Shown piece after piece: positions 1 to 4,995 of a DNA stretch of 7,431 nt. Made by a program: the position numbers and the translations under genes. Each line of letters starts with the position of its first letter. Positions within the stretch are counted from its first letter, which is position 1. Origin of the DNA: a virus (Duplodnaviria; Heunggongvirae; Uroviricota; Caudoviricetes); IMG/VR virus record IMGVR_UViG_2693429642_000010; one strand, 5' to 3'. The notes under the pieces were generated by a model. It did not search any database, was not told the origin of the DNA, and saw nothing but the letters and a program-made list of their open reading frames with translations.

Positions 1-189
1 CAGTTCAGCCACCGTGCGGGAACCAGGAGTACCGAGCCCTTTTCTGGCGGCGGTAACCCATTGTCCTAAAGTGCCTTCAGGAAGAGATAATCGGGAAGCG
101 CCTTCACTGATCGAAAGTTGATTTTCAAGAACCGTTCTGACAGCTTCGGCTTTGAACTCTTTAGAGTAACGTTGGGTTTTTCTGCTCAT
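1..189 (-). CDS. IS3-family transposase OrfA, N-terminal helix-turn-helix part (partial, 63 codons in window)
   Basis: Reverse complement of 1-189 translates without stops as MSRKTQRYSKEFKAEAVRTVLENQLSISEGASRLSLPEGTLGQWVTAARKGLGTPGSRTVAEL. GGAG Shine-Dalgarno 6 nt upstream of the ATG (plus 196-199). The N-terminus matches my recollection of IS600-like OrfA (unverified). Confidence 0.85.
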   Translation of the reverse strand, partial: MSRKTQRYSKEFKAEAVRTVLENQLSISEGASRLSLPEGTLGQWVTAARKGLGTPGSRTVAEL

Positions 190-253
190 TATTAGCTCCT
201 TCTGATGCCATTCTATTTCAGGAAGGAGTGTCCGTTAAACTCAGGCTACCTCA
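1..253 (-). mobile_element. IS3-family insertion sequence, one end only (element continues beyond window start)
   Basis: Minus-strand transposase OrfA starts at 189 and runs out of the window. Read on the minus strand from 253 the element terminus is TGAGGTAGCCTGAGTTTAACGGACAC, i.e. a TG... end with an internal GGACAC motif, as in IS3-family inverted repeats. Exact boundary at 253 is inferred, not verified against a reference IS. Confidence 0.7.
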
Positions 254-347
254 GACATGATATTAAGCTCATGGCAGGTACATCTCTTGACTGGTCATAG
301 AGATAAATTTAATGCTGAGAAATGCAGTATTGAATTTATCAATTTTT

Positions 348-587
348 CTATTTCCTGCGTATGGCACGTAACTTCTTAATGTGTTCTGCCGTTTCGATCT
401 CTTCTGCTATCCGATCTGCATCAGCTTTATTCACAGGTTCAAAGTCATGATTAAAGCGGAACATGCTGGCGATACATGTTCTGCCTTTTCGGATGTAGTG
501 AACTTTGTTGTGGGTAGAACGCAGGATTTTGCAGGGAGTGCCGTGGTGGTCGACGTACCAGGTGTTAGGAAAAATGATTCTGAACAT
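348..587 (-). CDS. hypothetical small protein (79 aa), last gene of the leftward operon before the IS
   Basis: ORF with ATG at 587 preceded by GAGGTG Shine-Dalgarno (plus 591-597 reverse complement) at about 7 nt spacing. Same strand as the neighbouring prophage genes. No family recognised. Confidence 0.5.
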   Translation of the reverse strand: MFRIIFPNTWYVDHHGTPCKILRSTHNKVHYIRKGRTCIASMFRFNHDFEPVNKADADRIAEEIETAEHIKKLRAIRRK

Positions 588-634
588 TTTTACACCTCAG
601 TTGGACGATGTTGAAATTTGCTGCTTTGAGGCCA

Positions 635-853
635 TCACAGTCCCCATTGTTTGTTCTTAAGTTCGATCTCCTCCTGGCAACTTGCACAAGTCCGACAACC
701 CTGAACGGCCAGGCGTCTTCGTTCATCTATCGGATCGCCACACTCACAACAATGAGTGGCAGATATAGCCTGGTGGTTCAGGCGGCGCATTTTTATTGCT
801 GTGTTGCGCTGTAATTCTTCAATTTCTGATGCTGAATCAATGATGTCTGCCAT
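635..853 (-). CDS. TraR/DksA-family C4 zinc-finger protein (72 aa), phage-encoded RNA polymerase secondary-channel binder class
   Basis: Translation contains CCECGDPIDERRRLAVQGCRTCASCQ, i.e. CxxC-(14-17)-CxxC with the GxPIxExRR signature of TraR-type proteins. Size and position in the delayed-early left arm fit lambdoid TraR homologs. Confidence 0.8.
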   Translation of the reverse strand: MADIIDSASEIEELQRNTAIKMRRLNHQAISATHCCECGDPIDERRRLAVQGCRTCASCQEEIELKNKQWGL

Positions 854-908
854 CTTTCATTAATCCCTGAATTGTTGGTTAATACGCTTGAGGGTGAATG
901 CGAATAAT

Positions 909-929
909 AAAAAAGGAGCCTGTAGCTCC
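909..929 (-). terminator. possible weak intrinsic terminator for leftward transcription
   Basis: On the minus strand GGAGC-UACAG-GCUCC (5-bp GC-rich stem, plus 915-929) is followed immediately by a U6 run (plus 909-914), just downstream of the orf61-type gene stop at 952. Stem is short, so strength is doubtful. Confidence 0.3.
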
Positions 930-951
930 ATGATGATTTTGTTTTTCATGT

Positions 952-1167
952 TCACCGTTCCTTAAAGACGCCGTTTAACATGCCGATCGCCAGGCTTAAA
1001 TGAGTCGGTGTGAATCCCATCAGCGTTACCGTTTCGCGGTGCTTCTTCAGTACGCTACGGCAAATGTCATCGACGTTTTTATCCGGAAACTGCTGTCTGG
1101 CTTTTTTGATTTCATAATTAGCCTGACGGGCAATACTGCGAAGGGCGTTTTCTTGCTGAGGTGTCAT
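952..1167 (-). CDS. hypothetical small protein (71 aa) in the lambda orf61 position
   Basis: Open frame 952-1233; the first 22 codons (MHFSGSGLHILCAYACRHGTCS) look non-coding and lack an RBS, so the internal ATG at 1167 (MTPQQENALRSIARQ...) is preferred. RBS is weak; start is uncertain. Confidence 0.5.
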   Translation of the reverse strand: MTPQQENALRSIARQANYEIKKARQQFPDKNVDDICRSVLKKHRETVTLMGFTPTHLSLAIGMLNGVFKER

Positions 1168-1243
1168 TGAACAAGTCCCATGTCGGCAAGCATAAGCACA
1201 CAGAATATGAAGCCCGCTGCCAGAAAAATGCATTCAGTGGTTG

Positions 1244-1596: not shown

Positions 1597-2267
1597 TGCT
1601 CCCCAAATACAAAACCAATTTCAGCCAGTGCCTCGTCCATTTTTTCGATGAACTCCGGCACCATCTCGTCAAAACTCGCCATGTACTTTTCATCCCGCTC
1701 AACCACGACATAATGCAGTCCTTCACGCTTCATACGCGGGTCATAGTTGGCAAAGTACCAGGCATCTTTTCGCGTCACCCACATGCTGTACTGCACCTGG
1801 GCCATGTAAGCCGACTTTATGGCCTCGAAACCACCGAGCCGGAACTTCATGAAATCCCGGGAGGTAAACGGGCATTTCAGCTCAAGGCCATTGCCGTCAC
1901 TGCATAAACCATCGGGAGAGCAGGCGGTGCGCATACTTTCGTCGCGATAGATGATCGGGGATTCAGTAACATTCACGCCGGAAGTGAATTCAAACAGGGT
2001 TCTGGCGTCGTTCTCGTACTGTTTTCCCCAGGCCAGCGCCTTAGCATTAACTTCCGGAGCCACACCGGTGCAAACCTCAGCCAGCAGGGTGTGGAAGTAG
2101 GACATTTTCATGTCAGGCCACTTCTTTCCTGAGCGGGGCTTTGCTATCACGTTGTGAACTTCTGAAGCGGTGATGACGCCGAGCCGTAATTTGTGCCATG
2201 CATCATCCCCCTGTTCGACAGCTCTCACGTCGATCCCGGTACGCTGCAGGATAATGTCCGGTGTCAT
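1587..2267 (-). CDS. exo: lambda-type exonuclease (Red alpha), 226 aa
   Basis: Translation [69 protein letters not shown]... matches my recollection of lambda Exo almost residue for residue. Same length (681 bp). Start overlaps the bet stop (ATGA at 2264-2267). Confidence 0.95.
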
Positions 2268-3049
2268 GCTGCCACCTTCTGCTCAGTGGCTTTCTGTTTC
2301 AGGAATCCAAGAGCTTTCACTGCTTCGGCCTGTGTCAGTTCTGACGATGCGCGAATGTCGCGGCGAAATATCTGGGAACAGAGCGGCAATAAGTCGTCAT
2401 CCCATGTTTTATCCCGGGCGATCAGCAGAGTGTTAATCTCCTGCATGGTTTCATCGTTAATCGGAGTGATGTCGCGTTCCGGCTGACGTTCTGCAGTGTA
2501 TGCGGTATTTTCGACAATGCGCTCGGCTTCATCCTTTTCATAGATACCAGCAAATCCGAAGGCCAGACGGGCACACTGAATCATGGCTTTATGCCGTAAC
2601 ATCCGTTTGGGATGCGACTGCCACGGTCCCGTGATTTCTCTGCCTTCGCGGGTTTTGAATGGTTCGCGGCGACATTCATCCATCCACTCGGTAACGCAGA
2701 TCGGATGATTGCGGTCCTTGCGGTAAATCCGGCATGTACAGGATTCATTGTCCTGCTCAAAGTCCATGCCATCAAACTGCTGGTTTTCATTGATGATGCG
2801 GGACCAGCCATCAACACCCACCACCGGAACGATGCCGTTCTGCTTATCAGGGAAGGCGTAAATTTCTTTCGTCCACGGATTAAGGCCGTACTGGTTGGCG
2901 ACGATCAACAATGCGATGAACTGCGCATCGCTGGCATCACCTTTAAATGCCGTCTGGCGAAGAGTGGTGATCAGTTCCTGTGGGTCGACAGAATCCATGC
3001 CGACACGTTCAGCCAGCTTCCCTGCCAGCGTTGCGAGTGCTGTACTCAT
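2264..3049 (-). CDS. bet: lambda-type single-strand annealing protein Beta (Red beta), 261 aa
   Basis: Translation [72 protein letters not shown]... matches lambda Bet as I recall it. 786 bp, as in lambda. Confidence 0.95.
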
Positions 3050-3054
3050 CCGTT

Positions 3055-3351
3055 TTATACCTCTGAATCAATATCAACCTGGTGGTGAGCAATGGTTTCA
3101 ACCATGTACCGGATGTGTTCTGCCATGCGCTCCTGAAACTCAACATCGTCATCAAACGCACGGGTAATGGCTTTTTTGCTGGCCCCGCAGCGTTGCAAAT
3201 GATCGATGCAGAGTGATTCAAACAGGTGCTGTGGAAGACCTTTTTCCATGTCGTCTGCCAGTTCTGACTCTTTCTCTTCACGGGCAATCTGCTGGTAGTG
3301 ACGTGCCCAGCTCAGAGCCTCAAGACGATCCTGAATGTAATAAGCGTTCAT
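3055..3351 (-). CDS. gam: RecBCD inhibitor Gam, short form only (98 aa)
   Basis: Translation [60 protein letters not shown]... matches lambda Gam from its internal Met onward. AGGAG Shine-Dalgarno 7 nt upstream (plus 3359-3363 reverse complement). In-frame stop upstream at 3406-3408 with no start codon between, so the long-form N-terminal extension is not encoded. Confidence 0.92.
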
Positions 3352-4228: not shown

Positions 4229-4918
4229 CTACCCATGCTTCCTATATGTCTGCGGCATGCTCCCAATAACCTTACCGAAGATGAACACCCGGTTCATCTC
4301 GTCTTTCTCGATCGGGTCCCACGGTGAGTAGCTTTTGTTATCAGAGATGACCAGCAGCTTATCCTTCATCATTTGCAGGCGCTTTACATGGGCTGTGTCG
4401 TCGTACAGAAACGCATAGATACCATCACCGTCGAAAGATTTAACTGTGATATCAACGAACAGCAGATCACCTGGTTCGATCGTTCCTGACATGCTGTCAC
4501 CACGCACGTTAATGATGCGGATATTTTCCGCCTTCCTACCATCGAACATGTGACGAGCATCGTCAAACGAGTACTCAACCGAGCGTAGAACTTCTACAAA
4601 CTCACGGTTGATGACTCCCGGCCCAGCACTGACTTCTATATCAAGAACGTCAATCTTGAAGTATTTGGAATGGCTGACAGTTGATTGTATTGGTTGCACT
4701 ATACTGTCTGACATATTTCCAACGCCAGAAGATAACCATTCTGCGCGCACACCCAAAGCGTTCGCGATCTCCACGATTTTAGTTGTTTGATTAGCTTTCC
4801 CTGTTTCGATTTTCTGAATAGCAGCCTGGCTAACCCCGACCAAATCCCCAAGCGCCTTTTGTGTAAGGCCTCGCGCTAATCTGGCTTCTTTAAGTCTTTC
4901 TGAGAGTGTTGTTTTCAT
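4229..4918 (-). CDS. CI-type prophage repressor: N-terminal XRE-family HTH plus C-terminal S24 (LexA-like) autopeptidase domain, 229 aa
   Basis: MKTTLSERLKEARLARGLTQKALGDLVGVSQAAIQKIETGK... is a classic XRE helix-turn-helix. The C-terminal part has a candidate Ala-Gly autocleavage site (VSAGPG), the serine motif GDSMSG and the lysine motif HVKRL as in LexA/CI. Start at 4918 preferred over the upstream ATG at 4984, whose 22-codon extension has no RBS and would run through the operator region. Not lambda cI itself. Confidence 0.85.
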   Translation of the reverse strand: MKTTLSERLKEARLARGLTQKALGDLVGVSQAAIQKIETGKANQTTKIVEIANALGVRAEWLSSGVGNMSDSIVQPIQSTVSHSKYFKIDVLDIEVSAGPGVINREFVEVLRSVEYSFDDARHMFDGRKAENIRIINVRGDSMSGTIEPGDLLFVDITVKSFDGDGIYAFLYDDTAHVKRLQMMKDKLLVISDNKSYSPWDPIEKDEMNRVFIFGKVIGSMPQTYRKHG

Positions 4919-4924
4919 AGTCCA

Positions 4925-4995
4925 AATGTACAACCAAGGTTTTATTCCATCAAACGAAAATGGTTGTTGATTAAAAACAACCATAGTTTTAATCT
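4925..4995. promoter_or_regulatory. OR-like region with divergent pRM-like (leftward) and pR-like (rightward) promoters and three operator cores
   Basis: Cores: ACAACCA 4930-4936, TGGTTGT 4961-4967, ACAACCA 4977-4983. Rightward: TTGATT (4967-4972) - 15 nt - TTTAAT (4988-4993), with 17-mer AAAACAACCATAGTTTT (4974-4990) between them. Leftward: TTGATG (minus strand, plus 4948-4953) - 17 nt - TACATT (plus 4925-4930), ending 6 nt before the repressor ATG. Confidence 0.55.

What the first reader, a model, noticed from the sequence alone, without database searches (positions are those of the whole stretch)
348..853. TraR-family zinc-finger protein plus an adjacent unknown 79-aa protein at the distal end of the leftward operon
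The TraR/DksA-like protein carries the four-cysteine motif and the GxPIxExRR signature, so it probably binds the RNA polymerase secondary channel and reprograms host transcription. The neighbouring 79-aa ORF has a good RBS but no recognisable family. A weak terminator-like hairpin lies upstream of the pair.
Basis: partly seen in the sequence, partly recalled or inferred. Interest (0 to 1): 0.45.

Follow-up and report, generated by a model that had tools for sequence, protein, structure and literature searches.

The report
Lambda Orf73 ortholog plus DUF4222 gene
These are two ordinary, already catalogued early genes of a lambda-like E. coli prophage: a near-copy of lambda Orf73, which is known to bind RNA polymerase and shut down ribosome synthesis, and a small DUF4222 protein related to the virulence regulator RgdR, whose mechanism is still unknown.

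Summary
They sit at the distal (xis-proximal) end of the pL "exo-xis" region of a lambdoid prophage.

- **ORF 635-853.** It is 92% identical to phage lambda Orf73. That TraR homolog has been shown experimentally to bind RNA polymerase, inhibit rRNA and r-protein promoters, slow host growth and raise burst size (mBio 2022). Every motif used to define the family is present: DxxDxA, CxxC-17-CxxC and the RR pair.
- **ORF 348-587.** The 79-aa ORF is not family-less. It is a clear member of Pfam DUF4222 (PF13973, E 1.4e-19) and PHROG 285. It is under purifying selection (dN/dS about 0.25). One member of this family has been characterised: RgdR of EHEC O157.
- **Structure of the 79-aa protein.** An AlphaFold model (pLDDT 88) gives a basic SH3/Tudor-like beta-barrel followed by a conserved basic C-terminal helix. 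The RGD motif of RgdR is absent.
- **Upstream hairpin.** It is the terminator "t2" already predicted in lambda.
- **Database status.** Both exact proteins occur on at least 1000 public contigs under these names.

The only open question is how DUF4222 proteins work. A link to RNA polymerase or to Orf73 is possible but unsupported. Interest is low.

The parts
635..853 (-). orf73 ortholog: 72-aa TraR/DksA-family C4 zinc-finger protein that binds the RNA polymerase secondary channel
   Evidence: PF01258 35.2 bits against a cutoff of 24.9; phrog_54 E 1.2e-25. 92% identical to lambda Orf73. Aligns end to end with F-plasmid TraR of PDB 5w1s/6n57. The exact sequence is on at least 1000 contigs, named TraR/DksA family transcriptional regulator.
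348..587 (-). 79-aa DUF4222 protein (PHROG 285): basic, with an SH3/Tudor-like barrel and a C-terminal helix; same Pfam family as RgdR
   Evidence: PF13973 E 1.4e-19; phrog_285 E 8e-37. RgdR hits the same Pfam model at E 2.1e-23. 30% identity to RgdR over 47 aa. AF2 pLDDT 87.6. dN/dS 0.24-0.28. pI 9.9.
593..598 (-). Shine-Dalgarno sequence GAGGTG of the DUF4222 gene, 5 nt before the ATG
   Evidence: Read from the sequence.
597..635 (-). 12-codon upstream mini-ORF. Its ATG overlaps the orf73 stop (TGATG) and its TGA stop lies inside the DUF4222 Shine-Dalgarno sequence. It is in frame with DUF4222. Possible translational coupling (inferred).
   Evidence: Sequence. Homologs P0003 and P0012 read through this stop as MASKQQISTSSNWGVK-MFRII. 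A Klebsiella phage has the TraR stop and the DUF4222 start overlapping by 1 nt.
864..868 (-). Weak Shine-Dalgarno-like AGGGA, 10 nt before the orf73 ATG
   Evidence: Read from the sequence.
905..929 (-). Weak intrinsic-terminator-like hairpin (929..915) with a U-rich tail. It corresponds to the predicted t2-lambda and is overlapped by the predicted promoter p1 (-35 TCATCA at 936..931, -10 TTTTATTAT at 912..904).
   Evidence: -8.6 kcal/mol, z -2.8. The sequence matches t2-lambda and p1-lambda as printed in PMC4195576. Identical to lambda except for one base.

Best explanation
The window is the early-left (pL) arm of a lambdoid E. coli/Shigella-type prophage. Region 348-853 holds the last two genes of its accessory 'exo-xis' block.

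**Gene 1 (635-853).** This is the ortholog of lambda orf73. It is made early from the N-antiterminated pL transcript. Its N-terminal helix (D3-x-x-D6-x-A8) reaches through the RNA polymerase secondary channel towards the active site. Its zinc-ribbon globular domain (R46, R47) sits on the rim helices and beta'Si3, and its C-terminal helix contacts betaSi1. Without needing ppGpp, it inhibits rRNA and r-protein promoters. This diverts host resources and raises phage yield.

**Gene 2 (348-587).** This is a DUF4222 protein: a 9.5-kDa basic protein with a five-stranded SH3/Tudor-like barrel and a conserved basic C-terminal helix (E-x-E-H-I/L-K-K-L-R-A). By analogy with RgdR, the only studied member, it most likely acts as a small accessory modulator of host gene expression. 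It would work through low-specificity nucleic-acid binding and/or by binding a host regulator, not as a sequence-specific repressor.

**Relationship between the two.** They are best seen as independent mosaic 'moron-like' modules that are co-transcribed and possibly translationally coupled here, not as an obligate two-component system.

**Shown:** gene identity, family membership, motifs, fold prediction, synteny and purifying selection.
**Taken from the literature on a 92%-identical ortholog:** RNA polymerase binding and promoter inhibition.
**Inferred:** the activity of the DUF4222 protein.
For: **Orf73 ortholog**
- 92% identity to lambda Orf73. Homology to lambda runs from orf61 through orf73 and breaks only in the last ~10 codons.
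- All functional motifs named in PMC9239242 are present: DxxDxA, CxxC-17-CxxC, the R48/R49 equivalents, and the two extra cysteines.
- Experimental data for lambda Orf73 are summarised.

**DUF4222 protein**
- Family assignment.
- RgdR biology (activates LEE1, represses motility, binds DNA non-specifically).
- AF2 model with pLDDT 87.6.
- pI 9.9, close to 10.1 for RgdR.
- dN/dS 0.24-0.28.

**Genomic context**
- Exo-xis position next to xis/int in phages 4A7, SfI, BP-4795, YYZ-2008 and a Klebsiella phage, and in Salmonella and Citrobacter prophages.
- Variable spacing to the TraR gene: 12 nt to 2.8 kb between the tblastn matches.
- RgdR sits in a PICI-like element (prophage Sp7) with no TraR-like gene annotated.
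Against: - Nothing contradicts the Orf73 assignment. The NCBIfam TraR subfamily model scores just below its cutoff (54.4 against 59.7). The last ~10 residues differ from lambda and fall in the helix that contacts betaSi1 in TraR.
- For DUF4222 the functional analogy is weak. Identity to RgdR is only about 30% over the barrel.
- RgdR's 16-residue N-terminal extension and its RGD motif are absent; RGD aligns to P7-N8-T9.
- RgdR's own mechanism is unresolved.
Confidence: 0.8

Rival explanations
1. The two proteins form a functional pair at RNA polymerase. DUF4222 would be a Tudor-like binder of RNA polymerase (for example at the beta lobe/protrusion, as for the UvrD C-terminal domain, CarD or the Mfd RNA polymerase-interacting domain). 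It would cooperate with, or tune, the secondary-channel factor Orf73.
For: - A TraR-like gene is on the same strand in 87 of the 89 fetched loci that have a DUF4222 match; 77 have the same 51-nt gap between the tblastn matches as the window type, but this sample is highly redundant.
- The TGATG overlap and in-frame mini-ORF in the window, and a direct stop/start overlap in a Klebsiella phage, suggest translational coupling.
- RgdR phenotypes (LEE1 up, motility down) go in the same direction as DksA/ppGpp effects on LEE1. For flagella this rests on my own knowledge of Lemke et al. 2009, which I did not check.
Against: - In BP-4795 and YYZ-2008 the two genes are 1.6-2.3 kb apart, separated by ea22 and other genes.
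- RgdR works from an element with no TraR-like gene annotated.
- AF2 on a natural frameshift fusion gave pTM 0.40 with the TraR globular part disordered. That is uninformative, not supportive.
Confidence: 0.1
2. DUF4222 proteins counteract xenogeneic silencing. They would bind H-NS (or AT-rich DNA) and relieve H-NS repression of phage, PICI and island genes.
For: - RgdR activates the H-NS-silenced LEE1 promoter independently of Ler, lowers motility and raises Congo-red binding. This set resembles partial loss of H-NS function (phenotypes; the comparison with hns mutants is my own inference).
- RgdR binds DNA without sequence specificity, and an inactive variant does not bind.
- The protein is small and basic, and is encoded by horizontally moving elements.
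Against: There is no direct evidence. No similarity to known H-NS antagonists was seen in the fold searches. The window protein lacks the RgdR residues shown to matter.
Confidence: 0.1
3. The DUF4222 protein is an accessory factor for site-specific recombination (excision/integration directionality), because it always lies next to xis/int.
For: It is the last or next-to-last gene before xis in every lambdoid locus inspected. SH3-like barrels occur in integrase and transposase DNA-binding domains: HIV integrase C-terminal domain and TnsB.
Against: In the PICI-like element, RgdR lies just upstream of the primase gene, far from int. RgdR phenotypes concern host gene expression. The exo-xis region is a known dumping ground for unrelated accessory genes.
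Confidence: 0.04
4. The 79-aa ORF is a chance or decaying ORF without function.
For: It sits next to an IS600 insertion in a possibly defective prophage.
Against: dN/dS is 0.24-0.28. The length is conserved at 79 aa across Escherichia, Salmonella, Citrobacter, Enterobacter and Klebsiella. The Pfam match is strong and the Shine-Dalgarno sequence is strong.
Confidence: 0.01

Closest known systems
Bacteriophage lambda Orf73 (exo-xis region)
   Same: 92% identical over 71 aa. Same gene order (orf60a-orf63-orf61-orf73) and the same upstream t2/p1 sequence. Same six cysteines, DxxDxA motif and RR pair.
   Different: V49A, and a different C-terminal tail (EEIELKNKQWGL against EDLELISKQRGSK). A mosaic junction lies in the last ~10 codons. 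Downstream, lambda has ea22, ea8.5 and orf55, whereas the window has DUF4222.
F-plasmid TraR (PDB 5w1s, 6n57) and DksA
   Same: Same length class and the same N-helix / zinc ribbon / C-helix layout. Same secondary-channel mechanism, independent of ppGpp.
   Different: Only remote sequence similarity (phmmer E about 1e-5). Two extra cysteines. Lambda Orf73 activates promoters weakly or not at all, unlike TraR. DksA is larger, has a coiled coil and needs ppGpp.
RgdR / ECs1581 of EHEC O157:H7 (DUF4222 prototype)
   Same: Same Pfam domain PF13973. Basic pI of about 10. Predicted barrel followed by a basic C-terminal helix. Encoded by a mobile element of Enterobacteriaceae.
   Different: About 30% identity. 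No 16-residue N-terminal extension and no RGD motif. Lies in a lambdoid exo-xis region next to xis, rather than upstream of the primase in a PICI-like element. No functional data exist for the lambdoid clade.
Lambda Ea22 / Ea8.5 / Orf55 (positional counterparts between orf73 and xis)
   Same: Same slot in the pL operon and the same early expression. Small accessory proteins implicated in the lysis-lysogeny balance.
   Different: Not homologous. Ea8.5 is PF20735 and Orf55 has no Pfam hit.

Membership tests
TraR family (phage/plasmid DksA-like C4 zinc-finger RNA polymerase secondary-channel factors) | Pfam zf-dskA_traR domain above the gathering score | tested here: met
   PF01258 35.2 bits against a cutoff of 24.9. 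phrog_54 'DksA-like zinc-finger protein' E 1.2e-25.
TraR family (phage/plasmid DksA-like C4 zinc-finger RNA polymerase secondary-channel factors) | NCBIfam TIGR02419 C4_traR_proteo subfamily cutoff | tested here: not met
   54.4 bits against a cutoff of 59.7, a narrow miss. The F-plasmid TraR equivalog NF010268 scores 27.8 against 108. The protein is therefore a family member but not an equivalog of F TraR.
TraR family (phage/plasmid DksA-like C4 zinc-finger RNA polymerase secondary-channel factors) | CxxC-17-CxxC zinc-binding motif | tested here: met
   C35-C38 and C56-C59 with 17 residues between them. Extra C36 and C53 as in lambda Orf73.
TraR family (phage/plasmid DksA-like C4 zinc-finger RNA polymerase secondary-channel factors) | N-terminal DxxDxA motif (active-site contact) | tested here: met
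   D3-I-I-D6-S-A8. The motif is defined in PMC9239242.
TraR family (phage/plasmid DksA-like C4 zinc-finger RNA polymerase secondary-channel factors) | Arg pair equivalent to TraR R48/R49 (rim helices and beta'Si3) | tested here: met
   R46-R47 align with TraR R48-R49.
TraR family (phage/plasmid DksA-like C4 zinc-finger RNA polymerase secondary-channel factors) | Direct binding to RNA polymerase and inhibition of rrnB P1 | not testable with these tools
   Shown for lambda Orf73, which is 92% identical.
DUF4222 (PF13973) / PHROG 285 | Profile match above the gathering score over the whole domain | tested here: met
   69.8 bits against 27, profile positions 1-53 of 53. phrog_285 positions 1-79 of 83, E 8e-37.
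RgdR-type regulators (functional subgroup of DUF4222) | RGD motif at residues 20-22, shown to matter for T3S activation | tested here: not met
   RgdR R20-G21-D22 aligns to P7-N8-T9 of the window protein.
RgdR-type regulators (functional subgroup of DUF4222) | 99-aa architecture with an N-terminal extension, and a PICI/P4-like context upstream of the primase | tested here: not met
   79 aa, starting at the barrel, in the lambdoid exo-xis region next to xis.
RgdR-type regulators (functional subgroup of DUF4222) | Activation of LEE1/T3S, repression of motility, non-specific DNA binding | not testable with these tools
   Known only for ECs1581 and C1493.

The most novel reading that the evidence does not exclude
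DUF4222 proteins may be a second, uncharacterised class of small phage/PICI factors that act directly on the host transcription machinery. They would use a Tudor-like barrel that docks on RNA polymerase or on H-NS. In lambdoid phages the protein would be co-produced with Orf73, by translational coupling, to complete a ppGpp-independent, stringent-like reprogramming of the host. This would also give RgdR's unexplained global effects on EHEC virulence a mechanism.
Probability: 0.12. Interest if true: 0.5.

Novelty: already known. Interest (0 to 1): 0.15.

Why it matters
As it stands, this matters little. It is a correct recognition of a well-studied lambda gene (orf73) and of a catalogued domain family.

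The residual value is the DUF4222 protein. The family is narrow: 109 clusters at 50% identity among 1.84 billion representatives. It is very common in E. coli prophages, Stx phages and PICIs. Its one studied member controls type III secretion and colonisation in EHEC by an unknown mechanism.

The fold prediction and the conserved C-terminal helix reported here give concrete handles for testing that mechanism.

Tried and rejected
1. **PDB sequence search with the DUF4222 profile.** Nothing significant (best E 0.58).
3. **AF2 on P0121.** This is a 167-aa database 'fusion' of TraR and DUF4222, apparently caused by frameshifts. It was used as a crude docking test. pTM was 0.40 and residues 29-89 had pLDDT below 50, so it is uninformative. 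A first alignment that included the window TraR was misaligned and was discarded.
4. **Rfam on 1-1700.** Only chance-level eukaryotic miRNA and snoRNA matches.
5. **PADLOC.** No defence-system match for DUF4222. TraR gave a meaningless weak hit.
6. **Search of viral contigs for related loci.** It returned 80 almost identical loci (94-100% identity to the window protein), so the 87/89 co-occurrence with TraR is not independent evidence.
7. **Plus-strand antisense ORFs across the region** (381-614, 505-660, 608-814). Nothing beyond their presence in the mechanical ORF list was found or looked for; I treat them as shadows of the two genes.
8. **Search for the window's IS600/phage junction in complete E. 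coli genomes.** Not found.

Full report
**What the window is**

The ORF list and family scans show a lambdoid early region. On the minus strand, from right to left, lie:
- a cI-like repressor (4229-4984);
- gam (3055-3351), bet (2264-3049) and exo (1587-2267);
- DUF1317/orf60a (1408-1596) and DUF1382/orf63 (1244-1435);
- an orf61-like ORF (952-1233);
- the 72-aa zinc-finger ORF (635-853) and the 79-aa ORF (348-587).

On the plus strand, cro-like and O-like genes follow.

Megablast finds positions 251-1600 at 96-99.8% identity in Escherichia phages 4A7, 1H12 and 21, in Stx phages and in thousands of E. coli genomes. In intact relatives the next genes are xis and int. The pair therefore sits at the distal end of the pL operon, in what the literature calls the exo-xis region. 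In the window, xis and int are replaced at about position 253 by the end of an IS600 copy.

**Checking the observation**

Both ORFs, their coordinates and their strand are correct.

The 72-aa protein:
- It carries C35xxC38-17-C56xxC59 plus C36 and C53, so it has six cysteines.
- It has G39DPIDERRR47.
- It has an N-terminal D3xxD6xA8.

The 79-aa ORF:
- It has a strong Shine-Dalgarno sequence (GAGGTG, 5-nt spacer).

The hairpin:
- It lies at 929-915 on the minus strand and is followed by U6.
- Its energy is -8.6 kcal/mol with z = -2.8. It is weak but better than most shuffles.
- It matches, base for base except for one G-to-T change, the terminator 't2-lambda' predicted by Bloch et al. 2014. That paper also predicts an overlapping promoter, p1.

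**The TraR-like gene**

It is the ortholog of lambda orf73: 65 of 71 residues are identical.

Nucleotide homology with lambda runs uninterrupted from orf61 through orf73. It breaks in the last ~10 codons, which is a typical mosaic junction.

Family evidence:
- Pfam PF01258 is passed.
- The NCBIfam TraR subfamily model is narrowly missed, at 54.4 against 59.7 bits.
- phmmer against the PDB aligns it end to end with F-plasmid TraR from the RNA polymerase co-structures 5w1s and 6n57.

Gopalkrishnan et al. 2022 (PMC9239242) reported the following for lambda Orf73:
- It binds RNA polymerase.
- It inhibits rrnB P1 and rpsT P2 in vitro and in vivo when expressed from pL.
- It complements a dksA-null strain.
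- It slows host growth and raises phage yield about 4-fold.
- It needs the DxxDxA residues.
- It activates thrABC, argI and rpoH P3 weakly if at all, which the authors suggest could be due to the two extra cysteines.

All of these residues are conserved in the window protein.

**The 79-aa gene**

Contrary to the finding, it has a family.
- Pfam DUF4222 (PF13973) matches at E 1.4e-19 over the full 53-position model.
- PHROG 285 matches at E 8e-37.
- RefSeq annotates it as 'DUF4222 domain-containing protein'.
- The exact sequence is on at least 1000 contigs.

Distribution:
- Word-indexed searches found 154 close clusters in Escherichia, Salmonella, Citrobacter and Enterobacter. Most are exactly 79 aa or carry alternative C-terminal tails.
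- An exhaustive profile search of 1.84 billion representatives found only 109 clusters at E <= 1e-3. The family is narrow.
- tblastn finds it in 128 phage records, including phage 21, SfI, BP-4795, phiP27, YYZ-2008, Stx1 phages, and Klebsiella, Enterobacter and Salmonella phages. In the six phage loci whose annotation I inspected it lies next to the int/xis end.

Selection:
- dN/dS against Salmonella and Citrobacter homologs is 0.24-0.28, so it is a real gene under purifying selection.

**The characterised relative**

A literature search for DUF4222 led to RgdR (ECs1581) of EHEC O157:H7.

I fetched ECs_1581 from the Sakai genome. It hits PF13973 at E 2.1e-23 and aligns to the window protein at 30% identity over the barrel.

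What is known about RgdR:
- It is 99 aa and basic.
- It activates the LEE1 promoter with or without Ler.
- It represses motility and increases Congo-red binding.
- It binds DNA weakly and non-specifically.
- Its mechanism is unresolved.
- It is encoded in OI-51/Sp7, now regarded as a PICI, immediately upstream of the primase and without a TraR-like gene annotated in the stretch shown.

How the window protein differs:
- It lacks RgdR's N-terminal extension.
- It lacks the RGD motif, which aligns to P7-N8-T9.
- It is therefore a family member but not an RgdR-type protein in the narrow sense.

**Structure of the DUF4222 protein**

AlphaFold2 was run with a 61-sequence alignment of both subfamilies. 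It gave pLDDT 87.6 and pTM 0.66. The model has five short strands (10-12, 18-24, 28-33, 36-41, 50-52), a short helix (42-48) and a long C-terminal helix (54-78).

- a PWWP domain bound to ssDNA;
- the C-terminal Tudor domains of UvrD/PcrA, including the complex with the RNA polymerase lobe;
- FeoA and DUF1653;
- eL27, NusG and Spt5 KOW domains;
- CarD and Mfd.

Foldseek against the PDB adds TnsB and the HIV integrase C-terminal domain, but nothing at E <= 0.001. BFVD gives uncharacterised phage proteins and DUF1653.

Other properties:
- The protein is basic, with pI 9.9.
- The C-terminal helix motif E-x-E-H-(I/L)-K-K-L-R-A is kept even in homologs of 36-47% identity.

This fits a small nucleic-acid-binding or protein-adaptor module. 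It is consistent with RgdR's non-specific DNA binding but does not identify a target.

**Are the two genes a pair?**

Evidence for a link:
- They are adjacent in the window type, in SfI, in a Salmonella prophage (167-bp gap) and in a Klebsiella phage, where stop and start overlap.
- In the window, the orf73 stop overlaps the ATG of a 12-codon mini-ORF (TGATG). That mini-ORF is in frame with DUF4222 and stops inside its Shine-Dalgarno sequence. Some homologs read through this stop. Translational coupling is therefore plausible.

Evidence against an obligate link:
- In Citrobacter, BP-4795 and YYZ-2008, one to five genes (ea22, DUF551 and others) lie between them.
- RgdR has no TraR partner.
- The 87/89 co-occurrence I measured comes from near-identical loci.
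- An AF2 run on a frameshift 'fusion' from the database was uninformative.

I therefore treat them as independent accessory modules of a mosaic region. A joint action on RNA polymerase remains a low-probability but interesting alternative.

**Comparison with what is known, and novelty**

Gene 1 is lambda Orf73 in all but its tail. Gene 2 is a catalogued DUF, with a studied paralogous subgroup. The hairpin has been published as a prediction. Nothing here is new as an object.

What is still unknown is the mechanism of DUF4222 proteins. It matters somewhat because RgdR affects EHEC type III secretion and colonisation.

**Verdict**

- Novelty: already known.
- Interest: 0.15.

Noticed in passing
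window 1-253: End of an IS600 (IS3-family) copy; the orfA start is at 189..187 on the minus strand. It abuts phage DNA about 43 bp from where xis starts in phage 4A7, so xis and int are displaced or deleted and the prophage may be defective. No complete E. coli genome in the collection has this junction, which hints at a Shigella or draft-genome origin.
   Followed up: partly
window 302-347, + strand: Strong strand-specific hairpin: 16 bp including two G.U pairs, -17.4 kcal/mol, z -5.8, against only -7.4 on the minus strand. It is followed by AAUUUUU, just downstream of the DUF4222 stop. It looks like a terminator for a rightward (antisense) transcript. It is present in phage 4A7 but absent from the Salmonella, Citrobacter, Klebsiella, BP-4795 and SfI homolog loci.
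   Followed up: partly
window 597-637, - strand: The orf73 stop overlaps the ATG of a 12-codon mini-ORF (TGATG). The mini-ORF is in frame with DUF4222 and ends at a TGA inside its Shine-Dalgarno sequence. Some database homologs have TGG there and are called as N-terminally extended proteins (MASKQQISTSSNWGVK-). This suggests termination-reinitiation coupling.
   Followed up: partly
window 952-1233 (-); L003 3213-3525: The orf61-like ORF is an intact 93 codons here, and is 97% identical to BP-4795 ORF9 (annotated ZapA-like). In reference lambda the same sequence is split by a frameshift into orf61 and an unannotated 60-aa ORF.
   Followed up: partly
window 860-955 (-): A tiny ORF of 29-31 codons between orf61 and orf73 is annotated as a hypothetical protein in phages 4A7 and SfI. 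It contains the t2 hairpin and the predicted p1 promoter, so its coding status is doubtful.
   Followed up: no
proteins P0103, P0107, P0098 (E. coli 'ybl17'): Some E. coli prophages carry a deletion that fuses the orf61-like gene in frame to residue ~21 of DUF4222, removing orf73 entirely.
   Followed up: no
protein P0359 (304 aa, metagenomic): A protein with four tandem DUF4222-like repeats was found by the exhaustive profile search. It shows that the barrel can occur as a repeated module.
   Followed up: no
window 635-853 (-); L005, L006, L088 homologs: The extra Cys53 (G-C-x-x-C-x-x-C) is conserved in phage Orf73 homologs of only 53-58% identity. Cys36 is found only in the E. coli/lambda sequences compared here. 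Cys53 could be an alternative zinc ligand rather than an accident.
   Followed up: no
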